From assembly GCA_026713605.1 (NCBI GenBank), contig JAPOOC010000005.1, positions 18,836-82,835 on the forward strand: a stretch of DNA of 64,000 nt. The letters are read 5' to 3'. Every line of letters starts with the position of its first letter. The first letter of the stretch is position 1. Position numbers and translations under genes: made by a program. The notes below the pieces were generated by a model that ran no database searches, had not been told where the DNA came from, and saw only the letters and a list, made by a program, of their open reading frames with translations. Positions 13,458 through 60,346 of the stretch are shown here, piece by piece. Source of the DNA: Candidatus Kaiserbacteria bacterium (lineage in GTDB: Bacteria; Patescibacteriota; Minisyncoccia; Phycocordibacterales; JABAAK01).

Positions 13458-13532
13458 TGCCGGATCGTCTAATTGGTAGGACGACGGGTTTTGATCCCGT
13501 TAATCTAGGTTCGAGTCCTAGTCCGGCAGCCA
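13458..13532 (+). tRNA. tRNA-Gln (anticodon UUG), CCA encoded
   Basis: Acceptor stem TGCCGGA/TCCGGCA with U1:A72 as in many tRNA-Gln. D-loop AATTGGTAG. Anticodon stem ACGGG/CCCGT with loop TTTTGAT (anticodon TTG). T-arm GGTTCGAGTCC, then GCCA. A terminator hairpin AAACCC-ccgcaaa-GGGTTTTTGTTTT follows. Confidence 0.7.
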
Positions 13533-13682
13533 ATAAAATAGGTAATACCAAACATGACAAAACCCCCGCAAAGGGTTTTTGTTTTCATGGTCACAGCAAC
13601 CATAACGCAAACCCAAGAAATAGCAAATTTAGACGGTTGGTGATAGAATAAGAGTACATATAAACAATGTCATAAAATAGGT

Positions 13683-15740: not shown

Positions 15741-15741
15741 T

Positions 15742-16092
15742 ATGAGGTATTTAAAAATAAAAAATGATCAAGGTTTTTATTGGGATGGAAAAGAGGATCG
15801 AGAAATTGATAAAATCAACAAGGATGACCTTCTTAAATTGCTGAATGCAGCAGAAACTGATGAGTTTTCGATGGATCCTTATGATGATAGTCTTATAAAG
15901 AATAAAGCCCATCAGATAATTTACGAAAATATACATTCAAAAATCACTCAATTTTTGGATGAAAAGGATCAGTTTAAAAATCAAGTTGATGGTTTATATA
16001 AAGAAGCAATAAGAAAATACTCTGCTGATGTTCAAAATAAAGAGACTGACGATATTGGTAATTTGGAAGATGAAAATGAGTCAGCAGATTGA
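15742..16092 (+). CDS. small acidic hypothetical protein, operon partner of the PHP-ATPase
   Basis: Its ATG is 2 nt after the upstream stop. 116 aa ending in an Asp/Glu-rich tail. The ORF track's longer version (15685) overlaps the upstream gene. Confidence 0.4.
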   Translation: MRYLKIKNDQGFYWDGKEDREIDKINKDDLLKLLNAAETDEFSMDPYDDSLIKNKAHQIIYENIHSKITQFLDEKDQFKNQVDGLYKEAIRKYSADVQNKETDDIGNLEDENESAD

Positions 16093-16095
16093 TCT

Positions 16096-17805: not shown

Positions 17806-20542
17806 AGAAACATTGCAGAATTTTCTGTTCAACAAGATAAAAGAGGATGACAGATACCCATCATTTCGTGAAAATGATGTTCCTGCACATATTGCAGATA
17901 ACCTTGCAAAAAGCAAGACACTCAGACCATATCAGGAAGAGGCAGTGAAACGGTTTCTCTACTGCTTTGGAGAAAGTGGCGGAATACCTCAAAAAAATCA
18001 TCTGCTATTCAACATGGCAACTGGCTCCGGGAAAACATTGATCATGGCGGCTGCTATCCTGCACCTCTATGCAAAAGGATACCGCAACTTCATATTTCTC
18101 GTACACAGCAAAAATATCCTGACACAAGCAATTAACTCTTTTACTAACGCATCGTATGAGAAGTACTTATTTAACCAAAAGATTTCTTTCAATGGCAGGG
18201 CAATTGAAACAAGGAAGGTCACCGATTTTGAGAATGCAAACGATATTGACATCAACATGATATTTATGACCACCCAGTTGTTTTTTAACCGGATGAATAA
18301 TGCTGCTGAGGATGTGTTGCAGAAGAGTGATTTTGCAGATAACCAGACCGTTGTCATTGCAGATGAAGCGCATCACTTGAATGTTGAAACTGCAAAAAAT
18401 ATTAAGGAAAGAGATAACTGGGAACGGTCAGTTACAGAAGTATTGAATATGCGGGATGATAATGTGCTATTAGAGTTCACAGCAACCGTTGATCTGATGA
18501 ACCCGTACATCAATAAAAAGTACAAAGACAAGTTGCTCTATAAATACGATTTTGCAGAATTCAATAACGACGGCTACTCAAAGCAGGTACAATTTCTCTT
18601 TAACAAAGAGGCGAAAATCGCAGATCAAAAGAGGTTGCTTATTGTCAATGCGGTCGCACTGTCACAATTCAGGAAAATGCAGTTTGAAGATTTGGGGTAC
18701 CCACACATTAACCCTATCATGCTCGTCAAGTCAAAAAGGATAGCAGATAGCGAACAAGATAAAGAGTTTTTCCATGAAGTCATAAACACATTAAAGGTTA
18801 GTGATTTCAAATTTCTTAAGAATGTGCAAAAAGACGAGAAACAGGTCGTGTCTTCATTGTTCAAGTATTTAGAACGCAAAAAAATCAGCGAAGGTGCGTT
18901 CATTCAAAGTATTCGCTCAGCTTTTACAGAGAAAAGCACAATCATCTATAATTCAAAAAATCAAAAGAACGCAGAATTGCTGAAGGATTTAGACGAACAA
19001 AATCCAAGAAACATCATTCGCGTTGTGTTTTCGGTCAACGCACTCAACGAAGGGTGGGATGTGCTGTCGCTCTATGACATTGTGCATTTTGATATAGGCA
19101 AGGATAAAAAGGTAAAACAGCAGGATATTCAATTGATCGGGCGAGGTGCACGATACTGCCCTTTTTTGCTTAAGGAGGAAAAGAATAGCCACAATTTATT
19201 CGGCGTATACGGCACCGAACCCGACAAGAGAAAATTTGACGACATTGGCATCAAGATTGACGAAAGAAAGATACTTGATAATTTCTACTATCATTTTGTG
19301 GAAACACAAACATTTCTTGATGGGTTAATTAAGAATCTAAAGAATGAGGGGATTCTCAACGAAGAGGTGCAGAAAGTTTCCATCAAAATGAAAGATTCAT
19401 TTATGCAATCCAATACCTATAAAAAAGGATTTGTATTAGTAAATAGCATCGAAAAAAGGCAAAAGACAACAAAAGATGAGAAGGAGCGGGTGTTCGGAGA
19501 AACACTGGATGTTACGGCATATGAACTAAGTGCGAGAGCCCTGACAGATGCCGAAGAAGCAAAAAATGCGAGCGGCAGAAAGGTTGGAGACATGAACATC
19601 ATAAAAGATTTTGATAGGAACATCATCAAAAAATCACTAATGGCAGCAGAAAATGGTTTTTTTAGATTTGCAAACCTGAAAGAACATATAACCTACCTAC
19701 AATCCATTGATCAATTTATTGATGAAGGTTTGGGTACATACACAATCAGGTATGAGCATCAGGTCGGAAAGGACATACACAATCTGGAAGTGAGAGAGAA
19801 GTTGCAGCTGCTGATAGGTGAAATACTACCAAAAGTGCGCAAGATAGTAGATAGGGAGCTTCCTAAGAAGAGTGCTGGCAGAGAGTTCAGGCCGGTTTCC
19901 TTACGAAAAATCTTTGAAAAAGAGAAGTCAGTGTATATACGATCGCACCCGGAAACCAATGAAAGAACAGGAAAGGTTGAATATGTTTCTCCGGGCGAAA
20001 GGGCGGAGGCGCAGTCGGACAGCAATAATCCAAAGTTGCAATTAGACATCGCAAAGCTTGAGTGGTATGCGTACAACGAAAACTACGGAACAAGCGAAGA
20101 GAAGCGATTCGTCAAGTACATAGATTCTCAAATAGAACAGTTATTTGAAAAGTTCACAGGAGCAGAAATATTTCTTCTAAGGAACGAGTTGGACTACTGG
20201 ATATACGGAGAGGGCGGAAAACGGTTTTCTCCAGATTACCTCTTATTCATCAATGATGCAAAGGGGAAAAAGTTCTACTACCAATGCATTTTTGAGCCGA
20301 AGGGATCGCATCTACTGGAAAAGGACAGGTGGAAAGAAAAAACTCTTGAAGAACTTGAAAAGATGACAAAGGTGTCTTTTGATATAAAAGATGGAGATAA
20401 AAAGGCATATGCTAAGTACTTGGGAGAAGTAAAAAAGATGGGGTACACGATAATCAAGAATATGGGATTCGCATTCTATAACTCGGAAAATGCAGAGCAG
20501 TCACTCAAATTTAAGGGACAATTTCAAAAAATATATGATTGA
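17792..20542 (+). CDS. res: type III restriction enzyme Res subunit (SF2 helicase-nuclease)
   Basis: Helicase motif I NMATGSGKT and motif II VIADEAHHLN. 916 aa. Overlaps mod. Confidence 0.8.
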   Translation: MPTLEETLQNFLFNKIKEDDRYPSFRENDVPAHIADNLAKSKTLRPYQEEAVKRFLYCFGESGGIPQKNHLLFNMATGSGKTLIMAAAILHLYAKGYRNFIFLVHSKNILTQAINSFTNASYEKYLFNQKISFNGRAIETRKVTDFENANDIDINMIFMTTQLFFNRMNNAAEDVLQKSDFADNQTVVIADEAHHLNVETAKNIKERDNWERSVTEVLNMRDDNVLLEFTATVDLMNPYINKKYKDKLLYKYDFAEFNNDGYSKQVQFLFNKEAKIADQKRLLIVNAVALSQFRKMQFEDLGYPHINPIMLVKSKRIADSEQDKEFFHEVINTLKVSDFKFLKNVQKDEKQVVSSLFKYLERKKISEGAFIQSIRSAFTEKSTIIYNSKNQKNAELLKDLDEQNPRNIIRVVFSVNALNEGWDVLSLYDIVHFDIGKDKKVKQQDIQLIGRGARYCPFLLKEEKNSHNLFGVYGTEPDKRKFDDIGIKIDERKILDNFYYHFVETQTFLDGLIKNLKNEGILNEEVQKVSIKMKDSFMQSNTYKKGFVLVNSIEKRQKTTKDEKERVFGETLDVTAYELSARALTDAEEAKNASGRKVGDMNIIKDFDRNIIKKSLMAAENGFFRFANLKEHITYLQSIDQFIDEGLGTYTIRYEHQVGKDIHNLEVREKLQLLIGEILPKVRKIVDRELPKKSAGREFRPVSLRKIFEKEKSVYIRSHPETNERTGKVEYVSPGERAEAQSDSNNPKLQLDIAKLEWYAYNENYGTSEEKRFVKYIDSQIEQLFEKFTGAEIFLLRNELDYWIYGEGGKRFSPDYLLFINDAKGKKFYYQCIFEPKGSHLLEKDRWKEKTLEELEKMTKVSFDIKDGDKKAYAKYLGEVKKMGYTIIKNMGFAFYNSENAEQSLKFKGQFQKIYD

Positions 20543-48101: not shown

Positions 48102-48200
48102 ATACCAAAACACCATATCAGATTCTCGGCTGAAGTGCAGCAAGCATTGAATCCTCTGCTGAAATACAGCAGACCTGGCATGCACATGAGCAAGGACCAA

Positions 48201-48836
48201 CTACTTGTCTGAGATAAATACAAACTTTCCATCCGGGGAAAAATTATACCAATATTCCAAACTAGGCGCGGCCAGGAATAGACCACGGCTGTCGTTAAGG
48301 GTACGAAAAAACATAAAAGCATCGACATGCGAACTGTCAAGGGGTTCCGTGAAGATAGTCTCATATTCTTCCGTAGCGTGTACCAGGCCGTACTGTGGTC
48401 CAACCCATGGAGGGCAAGGTTTGAGTCCTTGCGCTTCTGCGGCTTTGAATACTTCTTCCGGGGTGCTGCTATCAGGAAGTCCGAGGTCTTTCAGGGTTAC
48501 TTTCTTGAGGCGTACCTGCTCTTCTGGTATAGTGGTGAGTTGGTTGAGGAGGTCTTTTGCGCTGGAAAGTACGCGACCCCCCTTTTCCTTAAGTGCCTCT
48601 ATATACGCCGCGCCAGAGCGATACTCAGCAGAAAGGTAGAATATGCCCTCTTGCTGTTCTTTGTAGAGCACAATGTTTTCCCGTAATCGCTCCGTTTCAG
48701 TAGCAAAACTGGTACGGAGTTCTTTCGCTTTTTCAGAGTCACTTCCTTCACTCATCAGTACTGCTCTATACTCATCTGCAGTGTCTTGTAGTACCTGGTA
48801 CTGTTGCTCTAAGGATTCGCAGGTTATCTCTTGCAT
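48201..48836 (-). CDS. paralogous family protein 1 (MQEITCESLEQQYQ... family, unknown function)
   Basis: 211 aa. Shares a conserved N-terminal ~150 aa (ending ...GLKPCP(P/A)WVGPQ) with ORFs at 50811, 53804 and 54517. C-terminal ~60 aa are variable. All four end ...FVSDK. Confidence 0.5.
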   Translation of the reverse strand: MQEITCESLEQQYQVLQDTADEYRAVLMSEGSDSEKAKELRTSFATETERLRENIVLYKEQQEGIFYLSAEYRSGAAYIEALKEKGGRVLSSAKDLLNQLTTIPEEQVRLKKVTLKDLGLPDSSTPEEVFKAAEAQGLKPCPPWVGPQYGLVHATEEYETIFTEPLDSSHVDAFMFFRTLNDSRGLFLAAPSLEYWYNFSPDGKFVFISDK

Positions 48837-48842
48837 ATGTCT

Positions 48843-50708
48843 TTAGTGTACCGTACATCCAACTTCCTGCAGTTCTATTGCGATACTCTTGAGGGATTCT
48901 TCTATTCGCATCATCTCTTTTTCTTCTTCTCTTATCTCTGCCTCTGGATAGGTGTGTTCAGGCGCTTCGCCAAACGCATACTCAGCCACTTGTTCTTTGT
49001 AGATAAATTCAAAGTCATCTCTAGCAACAGGTTTGTCATACCCATCTTCAAAAAATCCCCCGAGATTTCTCAGATTCTGCTCAATAAAATCCTTATCAGT
49101 CGTTCCATCATCTATTTCATCAACAAACGATTCCTTTAGGTGATAATCAAGTGTGTGTCGGTATTCATCCCGCTCCCATGCCTCAAATACTTTTACCAGA
49201 GATCGTATGGAGGGTACATTTTTCTCAAGATTCTTTCCGATGCCATCATACTCAAGTTCCCTTTTTCCTGAGAAACTCTCCTGCAAAATTCGTGCGGCTT
49301 TTGCAAGCTCCCACAATTTTTCTATAGAGCCCTTCGGCAGATGTATGTTTCCGCGCCTGTCCATCACTTTTGCAAGCATAATATGAAATAACTCATCTCC
49401 CATGGCAACCTCTTCAAGACCACCTTCTGTACTCTGTGGCACATAATCATATTCCATTCTTGTGAACCTGCTTAAGAACGCCGGATCCAATGTCTGCCTA
49501 CCAACATAACTGCTATTTGTCTGTGTATTCAGATTTCCAGTCAAAATGATATTAAACCCCGGTTTCGCGATAACCTTCTTACCACCGTTGTGATGTAACA
49601 CAACAGTATTTTTTCCAGGCGTCATCCTCACAGATGCTAATATATCGTTCAAACAAATGAGTGTCTCGTGCGGTATTGCATTCGCCTCATCAATCACAAG
49701 CACTTTTCCTTCTTCCATCGCCTTATACACAGGACCATATTCAAATTCGGTTGTATTTCCAGTATCTAACTTATTATGCACTTCGGCCAGTATGAGATCC
49801 CATTGCTGATTTCCTTTCTCTTGTAGCGTTTCTTCATCCTGTTTCTTAGCCCATACTTCAAATTCTTCTTCTGCGTTCTCTCGTATCTCTTTCATTAATT
49901 TTGGATCCTTCTCTGATCCCTTCAGCACATATCGACCAAAAAAATCAGATCTGGTTACATTTTCATCACCAGAAATGCGATAAAATGGATGCTCTTCTTT
50001 ACTTTCAGGGTTAATTTCCCGATAAACCTCTTCAGCAACCTGAAACGCAAGTTGTGACTTTCCACTCCCAAGGTGTCCAGAGATGAATACTGGCTGCGCT
50101 GCGCGAATATTTTCGGAAACCTTATCAAACCTCTCCTGCACATATGGTGTTCTTACCAACTTCTCATTCAAAAGTGACCTTTTGTACCCTCGTAAGGTAA
50201 GCAGGTGATGTACATACCATGCCTCTGGGTTGGATTGCATGTTGTCCTCCAATCTTTTCTCAGCAGACCCTTTTCTCTCCTTCAATGTCTGTAGTGCTTC
50301 GCCTATTTCTGTGCTGGCATATCCTCTCTTTCGAATGTCCCAAGCATTTTCCAAAAGTTCCCGTTCAATTTTATCAAGCAATTTCATCTCAAGAACAACT
50401 GATCGGTAATCCTCCCCGATCTTTTTCATGTTTTTTGCCTTCTCGGCAAACAGCAACTTTTCGTCCTCGCTTAGTGCCTCTGACAGATCCTCTGCCTCAT
50501 TCTTTTTAGACCCTGACACCTCTTCCCTATCATTCTTGCTAATACTTTCAAAGTACTTATGTATTGAGCCACCTTCATTAAGCCACTTAATACTCGCAAT
50601 ATTTTTTTCATCGATGTACTCTTTTGATCGCTCTTCCACCACTTTCTGTTCTCGCTGCGACTGATACTCGCGGACATTTTTTCTTACGCCTTTTTCAAAT
50701 TTTTTCAT
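48843..50708 (-). CDS. MoxR-like AAA+ ATPase (AAA_5 type)
   Basis: Walker A FISGHLGSGKSQLA and Walker B VLVIDEANAI, with N-terminal coiled-coil-rich and C-terminal extensions. 621 aa. Confidence 0.65.
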   Translation of the reverse strand: MKKFEKGVRKNVREYQSQREQKVVEERSKEYIDEKNIASIKWLNEGGSIHKYFESISKNDREEVSGSKKNEAEDLSEALSEDEKLLFAEKAKNMKKIGEDYRSVVLEMKLLDKIERELLENAWDIRKRGYASTEIGEALQTLKERKGSAEKRLEDNMQSNPEAWYVHHLLTLRGYKRSLLNEKLVRTPYVQERFDKVSENIRAAQPVFISGHLGSGKSQLAFQVAEEVYREINPESKEEHPFYRISGDENVTRSDFFGRYVLKGSEKDPKLMKEIRENAEEEFEVWAKKQDEETLQEKGNQQWDLILAEVHNKLDTGNTTEFEYGPVYKAMEEGKVLVIDEANAIPHETLICLNDILASVRMTPGKNTVVLHHNGGKKVIAKPGFNIILTGNLNTQTNSSYVGRQTLDPAFLSRFTRMEYDYVPQSTEGGLEEVAMGDELFHIMLAKVMDRRGNIHLPKGSIEKLWELAKAARILQESFSGKRELEYDGIGKNLEKNVPSIRSLVKVFEAWERDEYRHTLDYHLKESFVDEIDDGTTDKDFIEQNLRNLGGFFEDGYDKPVARDDFEFIYKEQVAEYAFGEAPEHTYPEAEIREEEKEMMRIEESLKSIAIELQEVGCTVH

Positions 50709-50810
50709 ATTGTATTTATTATACTTGCTAATTATGATTATTTATATAGTACCATATTGAATTCCCCGCTGAAATACAACAGACCTAATATGCACCTGAG
50801 CAAGTTCTGG

Positions 50811-51446
50811 CTACTTGTCTGAGACAAACAAAAACTCCTTGTCGGAAGGCCAGCCAGAGCCCACATTAAGAGTGATCAGCTGAGAACTACGGTGGAAATA
50901 GGAAGTGTTGACAGTCCTGAACACATAAGCATCGCCGCCAAAATTGTCAAGGGGTTTCATGCCAATAGCAACATCTTCTTTAGTATCATCTGTCAGGCAA
51001 TGCTGTGGTCCGACCCATGCAGGGCAGGGTTTGAATCCTTGCGCTTTTGCGGCTTTGAGTACTTCTCTTGTGGTGCTGCCGCCAGGGAGTCCGAGGTCTC
51101 TCATGGTTACTTTCTTGAGGCGTACCCGACCCTCTGGTATGGTGTGAAGTCGGTTTAGGAGGTGCTTTGTATTGAGTAATACCTGGAACCCCCTTTCCTC
51201 AAGTGCCTCTATATACGCCGCACCAGAGCGATACTCAGCAGAAAGGTAGAATATGCCTTCTCGCTTTTCTTTGTAGAACACGATGTTTTCCCGCAATCGC
51301 TCTGTTTCAGTAGCAAAACTGGTACGGAGTTCCTTCGCTTTTTCAGAGTCACTGCCTTCACTCATTAGTATTGCTCTATACTCATCTGCAGTGTCCTGTA
51401 GTGCCTGGTACTGTTGCTCTAAGGATTCGCAGGTTACCTCTTGCAT
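50811..51446 (-). CDS. paralogous family protein 2
   Basis: Same N-terminal family (MQEVTCESLEQQYQALQDTADEYRAILMSEGSDSEKAKELRTSFATETERLRENIV...), divergent C-terminus. Confidence 0.5.
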   Translation of the reverse strand: MQEVTCESLEQQYQALQDTADEYRAILMSEGSDSEKAKELRTSFATETERLRENIVFYKEKREGIFYLSAEYRSGAAYIEALEERGFQVLLNTKHLLNRLHTIPEGRVRLKKVTMRDLGLPGGSTTREVLKAAKAQGFKPCPAWVGPQHCLTDDTKEDVAIGMKPLDNFGGDAYVFRTVNTSYFHRSSQLITLNVGSGWPSDKEFLFVSDK

Positions 51447-51458
51447 ATAGATACAGTA

Positions 51459-53717
51459 TTACATAGAATCGACAACAATACTACGAAGTGCCTCTGAAAG
51501 TGCCCCGGGAAGTTGTCCAACATCTTCACCGACCAATACCCCTCGTGTTTCATTACCCCTATTCCACGCAATGTGAAATGATTTTCTCTCGCCCTTGTCA
51601 ACACTGCCAATTTGAAAAGCACGAGCTATCACACCAGTTTCATGTAACGATGCAACCTCTTCTTGTACTTCTTTAGGGTCATTGGAGCCACCATCAGTAA
51701 TCATAAAGACAATTTCCAGCATCTTCTTTTCACGAATTTTGCGTACACAATCACTATCTGTGTGTATGGCACTTGACACCGTTTTAATCGCATTGGCATC
51801 ATCTGTCGAACCTCCGCTGTGGAGGGTGCCGAGCATTTTTGCTAATTTCACATCCTCGTCAACAGAATCTTCTGATCGAAACGATTTAATTTCTTGTGTT
51901 CCACCGGCAAACTCCCAAACCTGTGTGTCAACTTTTGTCTGTATTGCACCTTCCTCATTTTTCTGCCAGTCAACCCGTTTTTGAAATTCGTTCAACGAAG
52001 ACACCAGCAATACAATGCTTTGCTTTAAGATGTGCATTTTTTGTGCGTCCATAGAGCCGGACACATCACCAATAATGCGCACATGCACCTCCTCCGGAAA
52101 AGATATTTTTTTCTGCTCAAGTGTCATCTTTTTAAATATACGAGCGTTTTCAGCGCTCCCCGCCAGTATCCGCGGATATTCTTCAACAATAGCATCTATG
52201 TTAATGTCACTTCCTTCTTGATGTCTCCCACTGATAACTCTGCGTTTACCTATCGTACGGTACACCTGCAACAGTGTCTGCCAAAATTCAGACAAATCCT
52301 GTATGGGTTGCTCCAGCTCATCCTGCATTTCTCTCAGATGTTCTATTTCCCCATTTCTCAGTCCGTTTTCCCTTTCAAGATCCCGATCTTTTCTTTCTGC
52401 GAGATCTTTTTGTTTTTCTTCTGGCGTCTTTTTATCCCACTGCTCCTTTTCTACTTGTTCCTCCTCCTCTTCTTTTTTCCGCTCCGCACGATTTTCTATC
52501 TCATCAATCATTTCATCCCAATCATACTGATCAGGGCTATGCTTGCTATGATCTTGATATTCTTTCTCCCATGGATCACCAAATGGATTTGAACTGCCTT
52601 GCTGTCCACCCTCTTGCTGCTCACCACCTCCTTCACCTCCCTGACTTTCTCCACTTTCGCCCTCTTCCCCGCCTTCCTGCCCTTCCTCGCCCTCTTCCCC
52701 ACCTTCCTCTCCCTCTTCTGGTGGTGATGACGGCTCCCAATCCTCAAGGTCTCTGAGCAACAAATCCGTAAAAACAGGTTCAAGGGTGTGTCGAAGTGCT
52801 GTGTACCGCTCTTTTACTGTTGCGCCGTAGATATTGGATTTCTTTACACTCTTTTCTACACATTCTCTAGGGGTCATCTCCTCACCAAACCAGCGAACAC
52901 ACCTCTTGTCTAAAATCTCCTGCACCTCGTCACCCACCTCCACCTGCTCATCCGGCACCATCTCTTCTCGCAAGAGTGCGTAAAGGAATTGAAAATGGCG
53001 AGGCAAATCAGCATAGTTAGCCCCAGGAAACAACTTATACCTATACAAATCAACAATTGCATTCCGATGTCGCCCAGTGTTCCTGTTATACGGATGTGCT
53101 CGACGAGATACCTGATTATTCACAAACACATCATCAAAGATATTAAAAAAAGTGCTGTACGCCTTCATACCACCCTGATCAATACTCCGTATCTTCCGAC
53201 CCCCTTTTGTGCCAACGGGTATCTCTTTTTTGCATTTTTCAACAGCGTCAGGGTGTGTGTCACCAAATTTCTCTTCTAGTATACCGAGCATGTGATCACC
53301 TATCTCTCGTGCTCTTTCTATACCGTGATCAACGTTATACCGCAACACATCCTCAGGTGATTCAGTAAAATCGCGGTAATGCGATAGTTCGTGCAATGTT
53401 ACCCAAAGCATCTCCCCCTCGGAGTAACCCTGTTCATGAAACCACTCATGATCAAGGGTCACTTCTTTATCCATAAGATTAAAGAAAAATCCTCCGCCTC
53501 CCTCAATATTGAACTTCACATCACCACCAGCAAATTCATTCAGCATTCTTTTGTTTTTCTCCAAAAAACCACCGACCACCTCTCTCATTTCCTGCAGTTC
53601 TGGAGACTCTCCTTTCTTTTGCTCTACAGTTTTCTCCGCCACCTCCTCATTCTTACCATCAAACGAATCTTTATTTTTGTCTTTACCTGCAACAAATTTT
53701 TCAAACTTAACATGCAT
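51459..53717 (-). CDS. vWA-domain protein with N-terminal HExxH putative metallopeptidase domain (DUF2201-like partner of MoxR)
   Basis: HExxH in VTLHELSHYRD, a long acidic Gly/Glu low-complexity linker, and C-terminal vWA with MIDAS DVSGSMD and ITDGGSNDP. 752 aa. Confidence 0.6.
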   Translation of the reverse strand: MHVKFEKFVAGKDKNKDSFDGKNEEVAEKTVEQKKGESPELQEMREVVGGFLEKNKRMLNEFAGGDVKFNIEGGGGFFFNLMDKEVTLDHEWFHEQGYSEGEMLWVTLHELSHYRDFTESPEDVLRYNVDHGIERAREIGDHMLGILEEKFGDTHPDAVEKCKKEIPVGTKGGRKIRSIDQGGMKAYSTFFNIFDDVFVNNQVSRRAHPYNRNTGRHRNAIVDLYRYKLFPGANYADLPRHFQFLYALLREEMVPDEQVEVGDEVQEILDKRCVRWFGEEMTPRECVEKSVKKSNIYGATVKERYTALRHTLEPVFTDLLLRDLEDWEPSSPPEEGEEGGEEGEEGQEGGEEGESGESQGGEGGGEQQEGGQQGSSNPFGDPWEKEYQDHSKHSPDQYDWDEMIDEIENRAERKKEEEEEQVEKEQWDKKTPEEKQKDLAERKDRDLERENGLRNGEIEHLREMQDELEQPIQDLSEFWQTLLQVYRTIGKRRVISGRHQEGSDINIDAIVEEYPRILAGSAENARIFKKMTLEQKKISFPEEVHVRIIGDVSGSMDAQKMHILKQSIVLLVSSLNEFQKRVDWQKNEEGAIQTKVDTQVWEFAGGTQEIKSFRSEDSVDEDVKLAKMLGTLHSGGSTDDANAIKTVSSAIHTDSDCVRKIREKKMLEIVFMITDGGSNDPKEVQEEVASLHETGVIARAFQIGSVDKGERKSFHIAWNRGNETRGVLVGEDVGQLPGALSEALRSIVVDSM

Positions 53718-53803
53718 GTATGGTTTTATTATAGCAAAAAAAATCCCTCAAGAGTATCGCAATAGAACTGCAGAAATTTGGATGTACGGTATACTAAAGA
53801 CAT

Positions 53804-54454
53804 ATGCAAGAAATAACCTGCGAATCCTTAGAGCAACAGTACCAGGTACTACAAGACATTGCAGACGAGTATAAAGCAATACTAATGAGTGAAGGAAGTG
53901 GCTCTGAAAAAGCGAAAGAACTCCGTACCAGCTTTGCCACTGAAACGGAGCGGTTGCGGGAAAACATTGTGCTCTACAAAGAACGGCAAGAAGGTACGTT
54001 CTACCTTTCTGCTGAGTATCGCTCTGGCGCGGCGTATATAGCAGCACTTGAGGAAAAGAGGGGCCGCCTATTTTCCAGTGCAAAAGACCTCCTCAACCAA
54101 CTCACCACCATACCAGAAGAGCAGGTACGCCTCAAAAAAGTAACCATGAAAGACCTCGGACTCCCTCTCTCTGTCCCTGTCGTCAAAAGCGTAGAAGAAA
54201 TACTCAAAGCCGCAAAAGCACAAGGACTCAAACCCTGCCCTCCATGGGTCGGACCACAGTATTGCCTGGCAGCTGGTGCTGGAAAAGAGAGTGTTGTTAT
54301 TGGCATGGAACCCCTCACCGATTCGTCTGGTCATGCTCGTGTGTTCACTTCCTTTAAAAGTAAAAGACGCGCACGCGGTAATATAACAATGCGCACTTCC
54401 GACTTACTCCTTTATAGCCCTTTCCGGGACTGGTTGTTTGTCTCAGACAAGTAG
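53804..54454 (+). CDS. paralogous family protein 3
   Basis: Same family; divergently transcribed from the vWA gene. Confidence 0.5.
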   Translation: MQEITCESLEQQYQVLQDIADEYKAILMSEGSGSEKAKELRTSFATETERLRENIVLYKERQEGTFYLSAEYRSGAAYIAALEEKRGRLFSSAKDLLNQLTTIPEEQVRLKKVTMKDLGLPLSVPVVKSVEEILKAAKAQGLKPCPPWVGPQYCLAAGAGKESVVIGMEPLTDSSGHARVFTSFKSKRRARGNITMRTSDLLLYSPFRDWLFVSDK

Positions 54455-54516
54455 CTGGTCCTTGCTCAGATGTATTATTTGTTTGAAGAACAGAGTGTAC
54501 GGTACACTAAAGATAT

Positions 54517-55155
54517 ATGCAAGAGATAACCTGCGAATCTTTAGAGCATCAGTACCAGGTGCTACAAGACACTGCAGACGAGTATAGAGCAATACTGATG
54601 AGTGAAGGAAGTGACTCTGAAAAATCGAAAGAACTCCGTACCAGCTTTGCCACTGAAACAGAGCGATTGCGGGAAAACATTGTGCTCTACAAAAAAGAAA
54701 AGCGAGGCGATATATTCTACCTTTCTGCTGAGTATCACTCTGGTGCGGCGTATATAGAGGCGCTTGAGGAAGAGGGGAGCGGGGTAGATCACTCTGCAAG
54801 AATCCTCCTCAACAAACTCACCAGCATACCAGAAGAGCGGGTACGCCTCGAGAGAGTAACCCTGGAAGACCTCGGACTCCCTGATGGCGGCACTACAGAA
54901 GAAGTATTCAAAGCCGCAGAAGCACAAGGACTCAAACCTTGCCCTCCATGGGTCGGACCACAGTATTGTCTGACACGCGATACTAAAGAATGGGTTTCCA
55001 TCGGCATGGAACCCTTCATCGATTCGAATGGCGGAGCTTATATGTTCAATGTCTATAAACGCCGCGGTCAAAAAACGATGTCCACTGTCAAACCAGATTT
55101 TTATTCGTCTGATTGGTCTGACGGTCCTGGGTGGTTGTTTGTCTCAGACAAGTAG
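54517..55155 (+). CDS. paralogous family protein 4
   Basis: Same family; in tandem with paralog 3. Confidence 0.5.
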   Translation: MQEITCESLEHQYQVLQDTADEYRAILMSEGSDSEKSKELRTSFATETERLRENIVLYKKEKRGDIFYLSAEYHSGAAYIEALEEEGSGVDHSARILLNKLTSIPEERVRLERVTLEDLGLPDGGTTEEVFKAAEAQGLKPCPPWVGPQYCLTRDTKEWVSIGMEPFIDSNGGAYMFNVYKRRGQKTMSTVKPDFYSSDWSDGPGWLFVSDK

Positions 55156-55211
55156 CCAGAACTTGCTCATGTGCATACTAGGTCTGTTGCATTTCAACGG
55201 GAAACTCAACA

Positions 55212-57041
55212 CTAACCATCAAGATAATCAATATCTCGCTGGAATATCCGAGCATTTGAAGCAACGGCACGACAGTAATTAAGCGCATGCTGCCGGTATT
55301 GTCCGGTCCGCCAACCTGGACCAGCATAGTAGCTTGCCGCTGCATTACACTCATCTGTTGCAGCACCAAGCTGCTGCAGGTATGTGGCAGAAGCAAAGAA
55401 CGCATCTCGTGGATTCCATGGGTTAGACGGTCGATGATTGCCCGCTTTTTTGCGTATGAGGTCCTTTTCCGCACGATATTGCCACGGACCTGAGAAAAAG
55501 TCCAGTTGATTTATAGCATTTCTCGTCGAATTACCAACGGCTCCGGTGCCACGAGTGTAGCCATAGGGGCGCAAGATCCGATTCGCATACCGCTCCTGAA
55601 AGCGACTTACCGCAGCCGCCACCTTATCGGTGTAGCGACTACTCTCATTGCCAGGGCTTCCCGCTCCACTCGTTGCAACGGTAAACCCGCGCTGGTTTAA
55701 GAACTGTTGCAACCGCTTCACATCCGCACCGGTACTTCCTACCTGCAATATGCGCGTTGTTTGTATCAAATTTCTCACCGGCGAAGCGGTACCAGTCTTC
55801 GCATTCACCAATCCTGCAAACCGAACCCAAGTTGACGGAATAAACTGTGCTGGTCCCATAGCACCACCCCAACCAAACCCGGGGTTCGCTGACACTTTCA
55901 ACTCACTCGGATCTTTAAAACCAAGCAATTTCGCAATATAAGGGAAAATCGGCGCGTCTCGAGTCGGGTGCATGTCGGTCAAGTAATTCCCAGTTCCAAC
56001 ATTTTTCCCAAGATCAGATTCATTTTTAATCAAACCCAGCAAGAAAGCAGGTCGCACACCAGTCGCTCGTTCCGCCTCTCGAGCGTACTGCACTGCCTGA
56101 CCAAACGAAATATCGGCACTACCTTGCAACTCAAAAAGTCGGTTATTTATCTCCGCAACACGGCTCTCATATTCGCTCAATTTCTCCGTAGTTTGTTTCT
56201 CCTGTGCAACCTGTATATCAAGCAATTGCTGCTTTTGTTTCCGTTGAGATTGCACCTGATTCACCGTCGCCCGCTGCTGTTGCCATGCTGACCCATGCTC
56301 ATCTTTTTTCTCTTCAAGGTCGTCAATATTTGCCGCAACTCGTTCCCGCAACGATCCAACCCGACGAATAGAATCCTCAACGGTTTTCCGCAATGATTGA
56401 TACTCATTGATACGGGTAAAAAAAGAAGAGAGGGTCACATTAGAGAACAAAAACCGGGCAAACCCTTCCTGCTCTAATTCATTAATGCGCTGCAACAACG
56501 CCCATAAGAACTGCTGATTTTCAGCAAGTTGTCGGGCAAGATCCTCAACGGTCTCTTCTTTATCAACAATTTCTTTCCCCAACGCCTCAATAGCCAAGTC
56601 AATTTGACGGATACGAACAAGTCCTTTATTGATTTCATTATTAATAAGCAGAATATCAGATTCCGTATTTTTTCGTTCGCTAGATTGCTGCTCCAGTATC
56701 TTTTCATTCTTTTCAATTTGCGCTTGACATTCCGCAAGTGCCTGCTCTAACGCTTCCCGACTGGTGCCGAGATCAGTGAAACATTCTTCCGCAGAGACGG
56801 GGAAGGAAAAAAAGTGTAGCGAAAATGCTGACAACACCAGCAATAAAAAAGCAGAGCAAACAGATTTCTCACCCCGCATCAGGGACATCTCCCTCGCCAC
56901 CGTCCTCAGCGGCCTCTTCATCCTCCTTCTTACCGCCCTTGCCGGTAACCTCAATTTTTGATAGGTAATCTTCATCAATTTCTGGTTCCTGTTCTTCTTC
57001 TTGAGATTCCTCCACAATAGACACAATGATCTCATCCGCAT
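55212..57041 (-). CDS. secreted coiled-coil protein with lytic-transglycosylase-like and peptidoglycan-binding domains
   Basis: Signal peptide (SVCSAFLLLVLSAFSLHFFSFPVSA), a long coiled coil, a PG_binding_1-like segment (GSTGADVKRLQQFLNQRGF...RFQERY) and a C-terminal SLT-like region (ATYLQQLGA...YYAGPGW). Confidence 0.5.
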   Translation of the reverse strand: MRMRSLCLLWRNLKKKNRNQKLMKITYQKLRLPARAVRRRMKRPLRTVAREMSLMRGEKSVCSAFLLLVLSAFSLHFFSFPVSAEECFTDLGTSREALEQALAECQAQIEKNEKILEQQSSERKNTESDILLINNEINKGLVRIRQIDLAIEALGKEIVDKEETVEDLARQLAENQQFLWALLQRINELEQEGFARFLFSNVTLSSFFTRINEYQSLRKTVEDSIRRVGSLRERVAANIDDLEEKKDEHGSAWQQQRATVNQVQSQRKQKQQLLDIQVAQEKQTTEKLSEYESRVAEINNRLFELQGSADISFGQAVQYAREAERATGVRPAFLLGLIKNESDLGKNVGTGNYLTDMHPTRDAPIFPYIAKLLGFKDPSELKVSANPGFGWGGAMGPAQFIPSTWVRFAGLVNAKTGTASPVRNLIQTTRILQVGSTGADVKRLQQFLNQRGFTVATSGAGSPGNESSRYTDKVAAAVSRFQERYANRILRPYGYTRGTGAVGNSTRNAINQLDFFSGPWQYRAEKDLIRKKAGNHRPSNPWNPRDAFFASATYLQQLGAATDECNAAASYYAGPGWRTGQYRQHALNYCRAVASNARIFQRDIDYLDG

Positions 57042-57540
57042 TCGTTACCAGTGTAACATTGTCAGGAAGCGGTATATCAGATGCTGTCAAACGGGAGCCA
57101 ATCTCCTCCAAACCATCAACAGCAACTGTTACCTGACTCGGAATGTGCTGTGGTAAGGCACGCACCTCAACCTTATCAAGAGTTGCCAATACCTGTCCTC
57201 CATACGCCTTTTCCGCCGGCGACTCTCCCTCAATATGTATCGACACCTCATGGGTAACCTCGTGCGTCGCATCAACAAAAAGAAAATCAAGGTGTATTGG
57301 TTCTCGGGAAACCGGATGATAGGCAATATCCTGCACCATCACCTGTTTCCCCGACAAATCACCCTCCGTCTCAAACACCATCGCATCAGATGCAAGTGCT
57401 TTCTTCAGCATTTTCGCCTCAACAGCAAACGACTGTGACTCCTCCTGATTCCCATAGCAAACAACAGGAACCTGCCCCTGCTCACGCAGACCAGCAACCT
57501 CCTTACCAAACAACTCCCGTTTCGCAAACGCTATTTTCAT
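56869..57540 (-). CDS. rplY: 50S ribosomal protein L25/general stress protein Ctc with acidic C-terminal tail
   Basis: MKIAFAKRELFGKEVAGLREQGQVPVVCYG typical L25 N-terminus. The ORF-track start at 57588 is probably too long. Confidence 0.7.
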   Translation of the reverse strand: MKIAFAKRELFGKEVAGLREQGQVPVVCYGNQEESQSFAVEAKMLKKALASDAMVFETEGDLSGKQVMVQDIAYHPVSREPIHLDFLFVDATHEVTHEVSIHIEGESPAEKAYGGQVLATLDKVEVRALPQHIPSQVTVAVDGLEEIGSRLTASDIPLPDNVTLVTNADEIIVSIVEESQEEEQEPEIDEDYLSKIEVTGKGGKKEDEEAAEDGGEGDVPDAG

Positions 57541-57689
57541 ACTGTATATACTACCATAGTACCGCACATAGTTCTGCGTATAATCCACCCAACAGCAGCA
57601 AACAAACGCAGTCCAGTCATTTTTTGCATACCACAGGAAGAAGAAAAGCTTGAAAAATCAAGATTTTTTATCAAAAATCACCATAAAAA

Positions 57690-57718
57690 TTGACAAATTG
57701 ATACATATGATGTATAAT
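57690..57718 (+). promoter_or_regulatory. perfect-consensus sigma70 promoter TTGACA-17-TATAAT
   Basis: TTGACA at 57690-57695, a 17-nt spacer, TATAAT at 57713-57718. Confidence 0.55.
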
Positions 57719-57808
57719 ATATCATACATGGCAAGGTTGTGACGAGGGAAGACAAGCAGTACCCGACACTCTTTTTCAAAAATATTATTCACTACATATA
57801 CACCATAT

Positions 57809-57922
57809 ATGAAGCTCTACCAAAAGCTGATAGCAGCCGTCATAGTCACCACTCTGATGACGACGATCGCCGCTATTACAACTGCGTCAACCATTATGTT
57901 CTACAGTGTCGCCTACGCATAA
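57809..57922 (+). CDS. candidate 37-aa hydrophobic peptide (MKLYQKLIAAVIVTTLMTTIAAITTASTIMFYSVAYA)
   Basis: Lies 90 nt downstream of the consensus promoter and is followed by intrinsic terminator AAACGACCGAG-aatatt-CTCGGTCGTTTT (57943-57971). Single TM-like helix; no obvious SD. Confidence 0.3.
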   Translation: MKLYQKLIAAVIVTTLMTTIAAITTASTIMFYSVAYA

Positions 57923-58046
57923 AAACGCAGATAAAAAACTCAAAACGACCGAGAATATTCTCGGTCGTTTTGATTTCCTGCAAAAACAAATAAAAAACAG
58001 TGGTACTGAAAAACAGAGAAAGCGATCTACAACGACCACCGAAACC

Positions 58047-59243
58047 CTACACTTGTGATGAGATAGAATATATCGGAATAATAACTGCACCGATCAAAAG
58101 CCCCACGCCAAGTCCTAAGAAGACAATAATCGTTGGCTGAATAAGATCAAGTGCAGTATCAATAGTATTACGCAACTGTTTTTCGTACAAATCAGCAATC
58201 GTCTCAAGAATTCGCTGCAACTCCCCCGCCTCCTCTCCCACCCGTATAATCTGCGCAACATTGCTACCAAGATACTCCCGCCTGGCTATGGTCTCAGACA
58301 ATTTTACCCCCTGCCGCACCTCCACACTCATCTCCCGCACCACCTCTTGATACACAGTATTCACCATACCTCGACTTAATATCTGTAACGCAGTAACAAT
58401 CGGCACGCCACTTCCAAGCATCACACCCAGATTACGAGAAAAACGAACCAAAAAGTACTCTCGAAACATCCCCCGCAGCAACGGAAAATTCACCAAAAAA
58501 CGATCAAGTGCTTTTCGCCCATCCTCGGTCTGCGAATAGTAAACCAAGCCAAACCCGCTACCGAAAAAGGTAACCAAAAGTAAAACAATATTATGTTTCA
58601 GAAAATCACTGACAGCAACGACGATTCTCGTGATAAGGGGCAACTCAGCACCAGATTGGGTAAGAATGGTAGAAATTTGCGGAATAACGGTTACCATAAT
58701 CAGCACCATCACCAGAAAAAACATCACTATCACAAAAATCGGATAGGTCAATGCTTTGCGCATCTTGGCAGAAGTGTCAGCGCTACGATCTAGGTGATCA
58801 GCAAGATAAGAAAAAGATCGCGGGAGCGTCCCCGACTGCTCACCAATGGCAACAATGGAGATAAAAAATTCACTAAATACATTGTGATGCTTCAGCAACG
58901 CCTTTTCAACGGAGAGCCCTTGCTCAATACTCTTTGCAATATCAACCAAAATACCTTGAAAATACTTATTCTGCACATTTTCAGAAACCAAACTAAACGC
59001 TTGAAGCGCTGATATCTCAGCTTCAAACAGGGTAGCAATTTGGCGAGAAAATATGACAAGGTCTTTTTTTCGAACCTTTTCAAACACATTAATCTCCAAC
59101 GCACTCTTTGACTCATGTTCCAGTGAGAGCACCGTATACCCCCTCTCATGCAATAAAGTAATGGCATTTGTTCGACTGGTCGCCTCCAATTGCCCTGAAA
59201 GCTCCTCCCCTTCTTTGTCCACAACGGTATAGATAAAAATCAT
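58047..59243 (-). CDS. pilC: type IV pilus assembly platform protein PilC (GspF family)
   Basis: 398 aa, two GspF repeats, three TM segments. Adjacent to pilT. Confidence 0.75.
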   Translation of the reverse strand: MIFIYTVVDKEGEELSGQLEATSRTNAITLLHERGYTVLSLEHESKSALEINVFEKVRKKDLVIFSRQIATLFEAEISALQAFSLVSENVQNKYFQGILVDIAKSIEQGLSVEKALLKHHNVFSEFFISIVAIGEQSGTLPRSFSYLADHLDRSADTSAKMRKALTYPIFVIVMFFLVMVLIMVTVIPQISTILTQSGAELPLITRIVVAVSDFLKHNIVLLLVTFFGSGFGLVYYSQTEDGRKALDRFLVNFPLLRGMFREYFLVRFSRNLGVMLGSGVPIVTALQILSRGMVNTVYQEVVREMSVEVRQGVKLSETIARREYLGSNVAQIIRVGEEAGELQRILETIADLYEKQLRNTIDTALDLIQPTIIVFLGLGVGLLIGAVIIPIYSISSQV

Positions 59244-59260
59244 ATGACAAATTCTTTTAC

Positions 59261-60346
59261 TTACAAATAACGCGACAGCGCCTGCTCGCTTGAGGCATGT
59301 AATGTCGCAACCTCAAGTGCTACTTCACCCCGCTTTACCAAGTCGGCGAGATAACGCTCCAAACTTATCATCCCTTCCTCTTTTCCGGTCTGAATGGTTG
59401 ACTTAATACTTTCTACTCTCCCCTCTCGAATAAGGTTACCCACCGCATCAGTATTAATAAGTATTTCACATGCTGGTATCAAGCCGCCGGACATCCTCGG
59501 TAACAGCCGAACAGAACATACGCCGAGCAACGATCCGGCAAGCTGATGCGCTATTTGTCGTTGCTGATCAGCATGAAAAGAGTCAATAATACGATGTATC
59601 GCACCATAGGCAGAGTTCGCATGCACCGTTGAAAGCGCCAAATGTCCCACTTCAGCGGCAGTCATCACTGCCCGCATAGTTTCAACTTCACGCATCTCAC
59701 CAATCATGAGGATATCAGCATCCGTTCGCAAGGCGGTGTCAAGGGCAGAACGAAATGAAAGCGCATCCCAAGGAATTTCCTGTTGGGTGATAGTTGATTT
59801 TCGATCGTTAAAAACGAACTCAATCGGATCCTCAATAGTCAGAATGTGTTTTCGCAGGGTATTGTTACAGTGCCCGACCATCGCCGCAAGTGCCGTAGAT
59901 TTTCCGTTACCAGTGGCACCAACGATAAGAAACAGTCCGTTTGGTTCATGCATCACCTCTTTCAGCATTGCCGGAAGATGCAATTCCTCCAGTGTCCGCT
60001 CACTCGCCTGCACCAATCGCAGCGTAAGAGCAATGTTTCCCATTTCGTAGTACACCGTAACACGCAGATTTACCTTCACATCATTCTTAGTGGTGTGTAT
60101 ATAACTAAACATCAAATGCCTCTGCTCCTGCAGCATCCCTTCCGCATGCTCCACCCGTGACCCGGCAATGACGCGAAAAAACTCCTGGGTATCTGTTTCA
60201 GTAAGCACTTCTTTTTGGATAAACGGCACTAACTCCCGCTGCACTCGAAACAGTGGTTTCGTACCAGCAATAATGTGAATATCAGAGCCGTCACGCACCA
60301 TGAGAGTGTCAATGTAATCCTGTAATTCTGCAGCGTACTCCATCAT
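59261..60346 (-). CDS. pilT: type IV pilus retraction ATPase PilT family
   Basis: Walker A GATGNGKST, Asp box, His box; 361 aa. Confidence 0.75.
   Translation of the reverse strand: MMEYAAELQDYIDTLMVRDGSDIHIIAGTKPLFRVQRELVPFIQKEVLTETDTQEFFRVIAGSRVEHAEGMLQEQRHLMFSYIHTTKNDVKVNLRVTVYYEMGNIALTLRLVQASERTLEELHLPAMLKEVMHEPNGLFLIVGATGNGKSTALAAMVGHCNNTLRKHILTIEDPIEFVFNDRKSTITQQEIPWDALSFRSALDTALRTDADILMIGEMREVETMRAVMTAAEVGHLALSTVHANSAYGAIHRIIDSFHADQQRQIAHQLAGSLLGVCSVRLLPRMSGGLIPACEILINTDAVGNLIREGRVESIKSTIQTGKEEGMISLERYLADLVKRGEVALEVATLHASSEQALSRYL

What the first reader, a model, noticed from the sequence alone, without database searches (positions are those of the whole stretch)
48201..55155. MoxR AAA+ ATPase and HExxH-vWA (DUF2201-like) pair embedded in four paralogs with variable C-termini
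A MoxR-type ATPase and a protein with an N-terminal HExxH motif, an acidic Gly/Glu linker and a C-terminal MIDAS-containing vWA domain are interleaved with four 211-216-aa paralogs (two in the minus-strand operon, two divergent). The paralogs share ~150 N-terminal residues, diverge in the last ~60, and all end in FVSDK. MoxR-vWA pairs coupled to diversified accessory proteins have been proposed as NTP-dependent conflict/defense systems. The paralog family is unrecognised and could be the effector or sensor component.
Basis: partly seen in the sequence, partly recalled or inferred. Interest (0 to 1): 0.65.

Follow-up and report, generated by a model that had tools for sequence, protein, structure and literature searches.

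The report
Fossil hypervariable receptor genes around ATPase pair
Four near-identical small genes whose tails differ turn out to be relatives of proteins that other tiny bacteria hypermutate with a reverse transcriptase, here kept as a fixed four-member set wrapped around an ATP-driven remodelling enzyme pair, which hints at what this large, unexplained class of hypervariable proteins plugs into.

Summary
Window 48201-55155 (a Candidatus Kaiserbacteria contig) holds an AAA_5 ATPase, an HExxH + acidic-linker + MIDAS-vWA protein, and four paralogs of 211-216 aa.

The paralogs are not an isolated family. Each has a helical-hairpin N-module (aa 1-62) and a globular domain from a very large unannotated family (2685 clusters).

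In that wider family, 17 of 17 reverse-transcriptase-bearing loci tested carry a template repeat of the last ~137 nt. Of the mismatches, 304 of 322 fall at template adenines. This is the diversity-generating retroelement (DGR) signature.

The window's variable tails sit exactly where that variable region lies. Sister genomes carry 5 to at least 17 copies around the same ATPase/vWA pair. Two show adenine-type variation, and one keeps a truncated DGR-type reverse transcriptase between the vWA and ATPase genes.

The window has no reverse transcriptase or template. Its four tails are saturated and keep only a compositional relic. I read them as a frozen repertoire.

The ATPase profile matches midasin and NorQ. 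The vWA domain resembles Rea1-MIDAS and NorD.

The function, receptor array feeding an ATPase/MIDAS/zincin machine for defence or host recognition, is inferred. I call it a new variant of DGR-linked MoxR-vWA systems.

The parts
48201..48836 (-). Paralog A (211 aa): N-terminal helical hairpin plus C-type-lectin-like domain. Ends FISDK.
   Evidence: ORF. Alignment. Family search. Domain family.
48204..48341 (-). Variable region of paralog A: 46 codons after the IFTEP motif.
   Evidence: Coordinates. Position matches the VR of canonical DGR targets.
48141..48200 (-). Conserved non-coding stretch of about 60 nt just after the stop codon. It is shared by parA, parB and parD, and for about 20 nt by parC.
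   Evidence: DNA alignment. A 10-bp hairpin spanning LFVSDK-stop is present in parB, parC, parD and in L001. It may be a relic of a DGR target-site element. This is an inference.
48843..50708 (-). AAA_5 ATPase (621 aa), NorQ/midasin-type member of the MoxR clade.
   Evidence: Pfam AAA_5, 8.7e-14. Family profile against PDB: midasin 1e-28, NorQ 1e-4. Walker A and B motifs.
50811..51446 (-). Paralog B (211 aa). It sits between the vWA and ATPase genes, next to the position where a sister genome (L006) keeps a truncated reverse transcriptase after its own frameshifted paralog.
50814..50951 (-). Variable region of paralog B (46 codons).
51459..53717 (-). HExxH (zincin-like) domain, acidic Gly/Glu linker, helical region and MIDAS vWA domain (752 aa).
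   Evidence: Pfam VWA. Invariant in 15 homologs: H109, E110, H113, D116, D551, S553, S555, T674, D675. AF2 model. Foldseek hits to TRAP vWA, Rea1-MIDAS and NorD. Proabylysin at E 0.15 for the N-domain.
53718..53803 (.). Divergent intergenic region between the vWA gene and paralog C.
   Evidence: The upstream ~60 nt is shared by parA and parC, and partly by parD.
53804..54454 (+). Paralog C (216 aa).
54314..54451 (+). Variable region of paralog C (46 codons).
54517..55155 (+). Paralog D (212 aa). This copy was modelled: helices 6-30 and 35-62, then an alpha/beta domain 66-212.
   Evidence: AF2 pLDDT 89.3. Foldseek's best globular hits are C-type lectins.
55015..55152 (+). Variable region of paralog D (46 codons).

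Best explanation
**Shown**
- The four paralogs are two-module cytoplasmic proteins with no signal peptide. Each has a clade-specific N-terminal helical hairpin fused to a globular domain.
- The globular domain is probably C-type-lectin-like. It belongs to a very large family of targets of diversity-generating retroelements (DGRs).
- The variable last 46 codons lie exactly where homologs carry the DGR variable region.
- In sister genomes the same genes form arrays of 5 to at least 17 copies around the same AAA_5/vWA pair. Two of these genomes show adenine-specific variation. One retains a truncated DGR-type reverse transcriptase between the vWA and ATPase genes.

**Shown for the window**
- There is no reverse transcriptase and no template repeat.
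- The variable regions are diverged to saturation. Only a compositional relic remains.
- The N-terminal 150 codons stay near-identical.

**Inferred**
- The repertoire was generated by a DGR. After the DGR was lost it was kept as a fixed, germline-encoded set of receptor variants, with concerted evolution of the constant part.
- The N-terminal hairpin docks each receptor to the vWA protein's MIDAS site through one of its invariant acidic residues.
- The NorQ/midasin-like AAA_5 ring uses ATP to remodel or release the complex when the lectin-like domain has bound a ligand.
- The output is the zincin-like HExxH domain of the vWA protein, that is, proteolysis.
- The most likely biological role is intracellular sensing of invader or host proteins, as proposed for DGR-linked MoxR-vWA conflict systems.
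For: **Family and layout**
- The full-length family has only 34 proteins. It is multicopy on every long contig on which it was found.
- Synteny with the vWA/AAA_5 pair holds in L001, L003 and L006.

**The domain is a DGR target**
- The family profile finds 2685 clusters, almost all matching only positions ~65-211.
- 80 loci of that domain family were fetched.
- 26 of 80 loci, and 19 of the 39 loci of at least 6 kb, carry a reverse transcriptase.
- 17 of 17 tested loci have a template repeat. Mismatches by template base: A 304, T 9, C 8, G 1.

**Sister genomes**
- In the 847-kb genome array, the variable region has 0 invariant A in 44 invariant columns, against 145 of 381 upstream. Variable sites by codon position are 28/23/7, against 41/27/61 upstream.
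- The reverse-transcriptase remnant carries the motifs LGNLTSPLF and RYADDF. It is 50-57% identical to the canonical reverse transcriptases.

**Window relic**
- 72% of variable-region codons end in C/T, against 47% upstream (p = 1e-6). K/E/Q/M/W residues are depleted.
- dS is 0.22-0.27 in the constant part and 0.59-1.18 in the variable part.

**Coupling module**
- The N-hairpin is homologous to the N-termini of LRV/HEAT-repeat paralogs lying near another vWA/AAA_5 pair (HHalign 95.5%, E 1.4e-8).
- Canonical single-copy DGR targets lack the hairpin, the ATPase and the vWA protein.

**Machine**
-.

**Precedent**
- PMC7159879 and PMC10907252.
Against: - The window plus 8.9 kb beyond its right end holds no reverse transcriptase and no template repeat.
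- The window's four variable regions show no adenine or codon-position signature of their own. Differences are 36/36/36 across the three codon positions.
- The C-type-lectin fold assignment is weak: Foldseek E ~0.1, probability ~0.8.
- The vWA/AAA_5 pair also occurs without any paralog array, once among ribosomal-protein genes (L008, L015).
- One ten-copy array (L002) lies about 180 kb from the pair.
- Nothing shows a physical interaction, peptidase activity or a defence phenotype. PADLOC gave nothing significant.
Confidence: 0.55

Rival explanations
1. Host-recognition repertoire rather than defence. The lectin-like receptors mediate the epibiont's recognition of, or attachment to, its host cell or host molecules. 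This is the role usually proposed for DGR proteins of candidate-phyla-radiation (CPR) bacteria. The ATPase/vWA pair would assemble, export or recycle the receptors.
For: - Close domain relatives are lipoproteins with lipoboxes (P0052 and P0057).
- PMC10907252 relays the view that CPR/DPANN DGRs may mediate interaction with the host cell.
- Type IV pilus genes and a lytic transglycosylase lie next to the locus.
Against: - The four paralogs, the vWA protein and the ATPase show no signal peptide, lipobox or membrane segment in their sequences.
- In this clade the lipoprotein leader is replaced by a cytoplasmic-looking helical hairpin.
Confidence: 0.22
2. No functional coupling. The AAA_5/vWA pair is a housekeeping chaperone, NorQD-like or midasin-like, for some cell complex. 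Former DGR target genes merely expanded beside it by tandem duplication.
For: - The pair stands alone in L008, and in L015 between trmD/S16 and IF-1/S13/S11/S4/rpoA.
- The window's flanks are prfA, L31, Obg, ArfB and L25.
- One large array is unlinked to the pair.
Against: - Interleaving of paralogs with the two genes is conserved in four genomes.
- Unrelated paralog families, each with its own shared N-terminus, flank distant homologs of the pair.
- The hairpin module recurs on LRV/HEAT proteins lying near another pair.
- 78 of 80 canonical targets are single-copy and lack the pair.
Confidence: 0.13
3. Variation is generated, or still shuffled, by recombination rather than by a retroelement. 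The mechanisms would be gene conversion and inversion among inverted and tandem copies, as in cassette-type antigenic variation.
For: - About 450-bp repeats at 84-88% identity lie in inverted orientation around the vWA gene.
- L003 has the vWA gene inverted relative to the window, exactly as recombination between the flanking paralogs predicts.
- The constant parts are mosaic within arrays.
- dS is far lower in the constant part than in the variable part.
Against: - Recombination cannot create the adenine-restricted, first/second-codon-position pattern seen in sister genomes.
- An independent assembly from another sample is 100% identical over 12 kb, including two variable regions.
- This is most likely an added layer on top of the retroelement origin, not an alternative origin.
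Confidence: 0.1

Closest known systems
DGR-associated MoxR-vWA (VMAP) ternary conflict systems of multicellular bacteria (Kaur et al. 2020, PMC7159879; Dore et al. 2024, PMC10907252)
   Same: - A MoxR-clade ATPase with a vWA partner.
- A peptidase component.
- A DGR-diversified lectin-type domain proposed as the sensor.
- A reverse transcriptase inside the locus, here as a remnant in a sister genome.
   Different: - The lectin domain is not fused to the vWA protein. It sits on 4 to at least 17 separate small paralogs with their own docking hairpin.
- No VMAP protein was recognised.
- The peptidase-like domain is an HExxH domain at the N-terminus of the vWA protein.
- The ATPase is AAA_5.
- The host is a small-genome Patescibacteria organism, a group those surveys did not assess.
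- The window has lost the retroelement.
Canonical CPR DGR cassettes: target, (accessory gene), template repeat, reverse transcriptase (loci L016-L095)
   Same: - Homologous globular domain.
- Variable region in the same last ~137 nt.
- A homologous reverse transcriptase, 50-57% identical to the L006 remnant.
   Different: - The canonical loci are single-copy in 78 of 80 cases.
- They have no helical N-module, no AAA_5 and no vWA gene.
- The window has four copies and neither a reverse transcriptase nor a template.
NorQ/NorD and CbbQ/CbbO (MoxR-family AAA_5 ATPase plus vWA adaptor)
   Same: - A single-domain AAA_5 ATPase encoded beside a MIDAS-vWA protein.
- The profile hits NorQ.
- The vWA model superposes on NorD in NorQD complexes.
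   Different: - No metalloenzyme client is nearby.
- The ATPase has a 190-aa N-terminal extension and a long insert.
- The vWA protein carries a zincin-like domain.
- The apparent clients are a paralog array.
Midasin/Rea1 (eukaryotic AAA_5 ring, acidic linker, MIDAS domain that binds an acidic residue of UBL domains)
   Same: - Best PDB sequence match of the ATPase family (E 1e-28).
- An acidic linker precedes the MIDAS domain.
- The MIDAS region aligns with Rea1-MIDAS over ~310 columns.
   Different: - Here there are two separate proteins, and the ATPase has a single AAA module.
- This is a resemblance in parts and probable mechanics, not orthology.
Pfam DUF2201 proteins (putative metallopeptidase N-domain plus vWA-like C-domain)
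   Same: The order of a metallopeptidase-like domain followed by a vWA domain.
   Different: No match to PF13203 or PF09967, even at E <= 1. The C-domain matches classical VWA (PF00092).

Membership tests
DGR variable (target) protein | Homology to proteins whose C-terminal region has a cognate template repeat with adenine-specific mismatches. | tested here: met
   The profile of the paralogs retrieves the domain family. In 17 of 17 loci of that family there is a template repeat, with 304 of 322 mismatches at template A.
DGR variable (target) protein | A template repeat for its own variable region in the same genome. | tested here: not met
   There is no extra copy and no A-rich copy in the 64-kb window or in the 8.9 kb beyond it. 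The rest of the genome could not be searched.
DGR variable (target) protein | A DGR-type reverse transcriptase nearby. | tested here: not met
   None in the window. A truncated one is present at the syntenic position in sister genome L006.
DGR variable (target) protein | Variation among copies restricted to template-adenine sites (first and second codon positions of AAY codons). | tested here: inconclusive
   Clear in the 847-kb and 696-kb sister genomes. In the window the differences are 36/36/36 by codon position. Only a relic remains: 72% C/T-ending codons against 47% upstream.
DGR variable (target) protein | C-type-lectin fold carrying the variable residues. | tested here: inconclusive
MoxR-clade AAA+ ATPase (AAA_5: NorQ/CbbQ/midasin group) | AAA_5 domain above the Pfam threshold, with Walker A and B motifs. 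| tested here: met
   52.1 bits against a cut-off of 22. GHLGSGKS and VLVIDEAN. Midasin 1e-28 and NorQ 1e-4.
MoxR-clade AAA+ ATPase (AAA_5: NorQ/CbbQ/midasin group) | Genomic pairing with a vWA-domain partner. | tested here: met
   The two are adjacent, or separated by one paralog, in the window and in L001, L003, L006, L007, L008, L010 and L015. In L012 they are separated by six paralogs.
vWA domain with MIDAS | VWA domain above the Pfam threshold with DxSxS...T...D metal-site residues. | tested here: met
   35.7 bits against a cut-off of 23.8. D551, S553, S555, T674 and D675 are invariant; T638 and D640 are nearly invariant.
Zincin metallopeptidase | HExxH with a third zinc ligand in a zincin fold. 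| tested here: inconclusive
   H109, E110, H113 and D116 are invariant in 15 homologs. The only sequence hint is proabylysin at E 0.15. The fold search was dominated by the vWA domain.
Pfam DUF2201 / DUF2201_N | A match to PF09967 or PF13203. | tested here: not met
   No hit at E <= 1.
VMAP ternary conflict system | Presence of a VMAP protein (VMAP-C domain) as the third component. | not testable with these tools
   No VMAP model is held. The paralogs and the vWA protein have no PADLOC hit at E <= 0.01. The best ATPase hit is mad8 at 3e-4.

The most novel reading that the evidence does not exclude
Patescibacteria and DPANN archaea share a midasin/NorQD-like two-protein machine: an AAA_5 ATPase plus a zincin-MIDAS vWA protein. 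It works with interchangeable, locus-specific arrays of receptor paralogs, which may be lectin-like, LRV/HEAT or other types. In one lineage the receptor array was built by a diversity-generating retroelement and then fixed as a germline-encoded repertoire after the retroelement decayed. That would be a prokaryotic example of somatic-type diversification being converted into an inherited receptor family, serving immunity or host recognition.
Probability: 0.3. Interest if true: 0.8.

Novelty: new variant of a known kind. Interest (0 to 1): 0.62.

Why it matters
DGR targets are abundant in CPR bacteria and DPANN archaea, but what their hypervariable proteins connect to is unknown.

This locus ties one subfamily, through a dedicated docking module, to an ATP-driven MIDAS/zincin machine. 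That gives a concrete, testable downstream partner.

It also extends the link between DGRs and MoxR-vWA systems beyond multicellular bacteria. And it shows a probable evolutionary end-state, in which the retroelement decays while the diversity it produced is retained as a multigene family.

Tried and rejected
- **Local retroelement.** A six-frame YxDD scan, a low-stringency BLAST of each paralog against the window, and a tblastn with the L006 reverse-transcriptase remnant all found nothing.
- **Template repeat in sister loci.** An inferred A-rich template matched only the paralog genes themselves.
- **Exact 3'-end 20-mer in GTDB species genomes.** It hit only the nine paralog copies of OY764332.1. 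The window's genome is not in that collection, and the flanks of that array hold no reverse transcriptase.
- **First metagenome scan with the full-length family.** It found nothing. A domain-only alignment was needed.
- **Indels in the window's variable tails.** I first read them as having indels. All four are in fact 46 codons long, and the gaps were alignment artefacts of saturated sequence. This does not rescue a DGR signature.
- **N-termini of the L010 and L012 arrays.** They are not detectably related to the window's hairpin.
- **Promoter and terminator scan.** Counts were no better than in shuffles.
- **Viral origin.** The vWA protein is absent from IMG/VR, where only generic AAA_5 fragments were found.
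- **Annotation libraries for the paralogs.** PADLOC, NCBIfam and Pfam gave nothing significant.


Full report
**1. The observation**

The six ORFs are exactly where the finding places them. The contig is annotated in public sources as Candidatus Kaiserbacteria.

- **ATPase (48843-50708, minus strand).** It matches Pfam AAA_5 at 8.7e-14 and has Walker A and B motifs.
- **vWA protein (51459-53717, minus strand).**
  - It has HELSH at residues 109-113.
  - Its Gly/Glu linker is disordered in the AF2 model.
  - Its classical VWA domain has a complete MIDAS site.
  - These residues are invariant in 15 homologs.
- **Four paralogs (211, 211, 216 and 212 aa).**
  - They are 63-69% identical.
  - They are near-identical for about 150 residues and then different.
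  - The DNA is again conserved for about 60 nt after the stop codon.
- **Small corrections.** One copy ends FISDK. No DUF2201 model matches.

**2. The paralog family elsewhere**

Only 34 full-length relatives exist in 5.8 billion proteins. All come from a few related Patescibacteria contigs, and every long contig among them carries several copies.

Three longer contigs show the same interleaved layout around orthologs of the vWA and AAA_5 genes:

| Genome | Loci | Copies |
|---|---|---|
| 696-kb chromosome OY764332.1 | L001, L005 | 10 |
| 263-kb contig | L003 | 5 |
| 847-kb contig | L006 plus a second, unlinked array L002 | at least 17 |

In L003 the vWA gene is inverted relative to the window. 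Recombination between its inverted flanking paralogs would produce exactly this.

**3. The variable tail is a retroelement variable region**

In the 847-kb genome the last ~105 nt before the conserved end has these properties:

- Variation falls at first and second codon positions (28/23/7, against 41/27/61 upstream).
- There are no indels among most copies.
- None of the 44 invariant columns is an A, against 145 of 381 upstream.

The 696-kb genome shows the same bias. This is the footprint of adenine mutagenesis on AAY codons.

At the syntenic locus of that genome, after a frameshifted paralog that sits where the window has parB, lies a 224-codon ORF. It has a Pfam RVT_1 hit and the motifs LGNLTSPLF and RYADDF. 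It lacks the N-terminal reverse-transcriptase motifs. No template repeat remains there.

**4. The test on the wider family**

- A profile of the paralogs finds 2685 clusters among 1.84 billion representatives. Almost all match only positions ~65-211, the globular domain. None of the ten members scanned had a Pfam match over that domain.
- A domain-only alignment retrieved 80 metagenomic loci.
- 26 of these loci carry a reverse transcriptase 50-57% identical to the remnant. Among loci of at least 6 kb the count is 19 of 39.
- In all 17 loci examined, a second copy of the gene's last 134-143 nt lies a few hundred bases away. It differs almost only where that copy has A: 304 of 322 mismatches.
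- The variable region begins right after the conserved IGMEP motif. This is the point where the window's paralogs start to differ.
- These canonical loci are single-copy in 78 of 80 cases. They have neither the hairpin nor the ATPase/vWA pair.

**5. The window itself**

- There is no reverse transcriptase or template in 64 kb or in 8.9 kb beyond the right end.
- None of the four tails is A-rich.
- All four tails are exactly 46 codons, but their central ~30 codons are unalignable. Differences are equal at the three codon positions.
- A relic persists. 72% of tail codons end in C/T against 47% upstream (p = 1e-6), and residues that AAY-derived codons cannot encode are depleted.
- Synonymous divergence is 0.22-0.27 in the constant part and 0.59-1.18 in the tail. 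This points to concerted evolution of the constant part.
- A second assembly from another sample is identical over 12 kb.
- I therefore read the four tails as a frozen repertoire. This is an inference. The rest of the genome could not be searched.

**6. Structure**

- The AF2 model of parD (pLDDT 89.3) has a two-helix hairpin (residues 6-62) and an alpha/beta domain.
- The best globular matches in the PDB and in viral models are C-type lectins, but weakly.
- The hairpin is homologous to the N-termini of LRV/HEAT-repeat paralogs lying near another vWA/AAA_5 pair (HHalign 95.5%, E 1.4e-8).
- More distant homologs of the pair are flanked by other paralog arrays. Each array has its own shared N-terminus and variable C-terminus.
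- Two pairs stand alone, one among ribosomal-protein genes.

**7. The machine**

- The ATPase family profile matches midasin AAA modules (1e-28) and NorQ (1e-4).
- The vWA model superposes on TRAP, Rea1-MIDAS, MDN1-MIDAS/UBL and NorD in NorQD complexes.
- By analogy with those systems, the MIDAS site would hold an acidic residue of a client and the ring would pull on it. This step rests on established knowledge of NorQD and midasin.
- The client here is most plausibly the invariant, acidic hairpin of the paralogs. The zincin-like domain would be the output. Neither has been tested.

**8. Comparison with what is known**

- The nearest described systems are the DGR-linked MoxR-vWA ternary conflict systems (PMC7159879; PMC10907252).
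- PMC10907252 also reports that CPR DGR targets are often lectin domains fused to an AAA ATPase.
- This locus differs in these ways:
  - It has separate multicopy receptors with a docking hairpin.
  - It has a zincin-vWA fusion.
  - It uses an AAA_5 ATPase.
  - No VMAP protein was recognised.
  - In the window the retroelement has been lost.
- I file it as a new variant of a known kind.

**9. Confidence**

| Claim | Confidence |
|---|---|
| The paralogs are DGR-type variable proteins | about 0.9 |
| They are functionally coupled to the pair | about 0.6 |
| The role is defence rather than host recognition | about 0.35-0.4 |

Noticed in passing
window 13458-20542: A tRNA gene (13458-13529) is followed by a low-GC island (0.33-0.39). 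The island encodes an AAA_21 ATPase, an N6/N4 DNA methylase and a ResIII helicase. It looks like an integrated type III restriction-modification-like defence island.
   Followed up: partly
window 4958-8876: A TnpB/Cas12f1-like gene (5805-7214) is preceded by internal DNA repeats about 76% identical (4958-5623). A Fic-domain protein with a MarR-like tail follows (7665-8876).
   Followed up: no
L006 13810-16125: The orthologous AAA_5 ATPase in the 847-kb genome is 771 aa. It has an internal tandem duplication of about 75 residues that the window's ATPase lacks. A 798-aa relative (P0204) also exists.
   Followed up: no
L003 5127-10648 versus window 48843-54454: The vWA gene is inverted relative to the ATPase gene in one sister genome. 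Its breakpoints lie at the flanking inverted paralog copies, which suggests recombination between paralogs.
   Followed up: partly
window 50790-50831, 54434-54475 and 55132-55169; L001 arrays: A 10-bp hairpin (GCTGTTTGTC-TCA-GACAAGTAGC) spans the codons LFVSDK and the stop in parB, parC, parD and in L001. Canonical DGR loci of the family instead have a long CTTGG-rich hairpin just after the stop. The window element may be a relic of a target-site element.
   Followed up: partly
L015 7725-11971: In a 724-kb Patescibacteria genome the vWA-like/AAA_5 pair sits alone between trmD/S16 and IF-1/S13/S11/S4/rpoA. This fits the midasin resemblance but may be coincidental in a small genome.
   Followed up: no
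proteins P0120 and P0147 (domain family): Some long members of the DGR-target domain family carry a PcfJ-like N-terminal domain. Others (P0052, P0057) are lipoproteins, and P0052 has two tandem copies of the domain.
   Followed up: no
window 55212-60346: Beside the locus lie a 609-aa coiled-coil protein with SLT_2 transglycosylase and peptidoglycan-binding domains, ribosomal protein L25, and the type IV pilus genes PilC and PilB.
   Followed up: no
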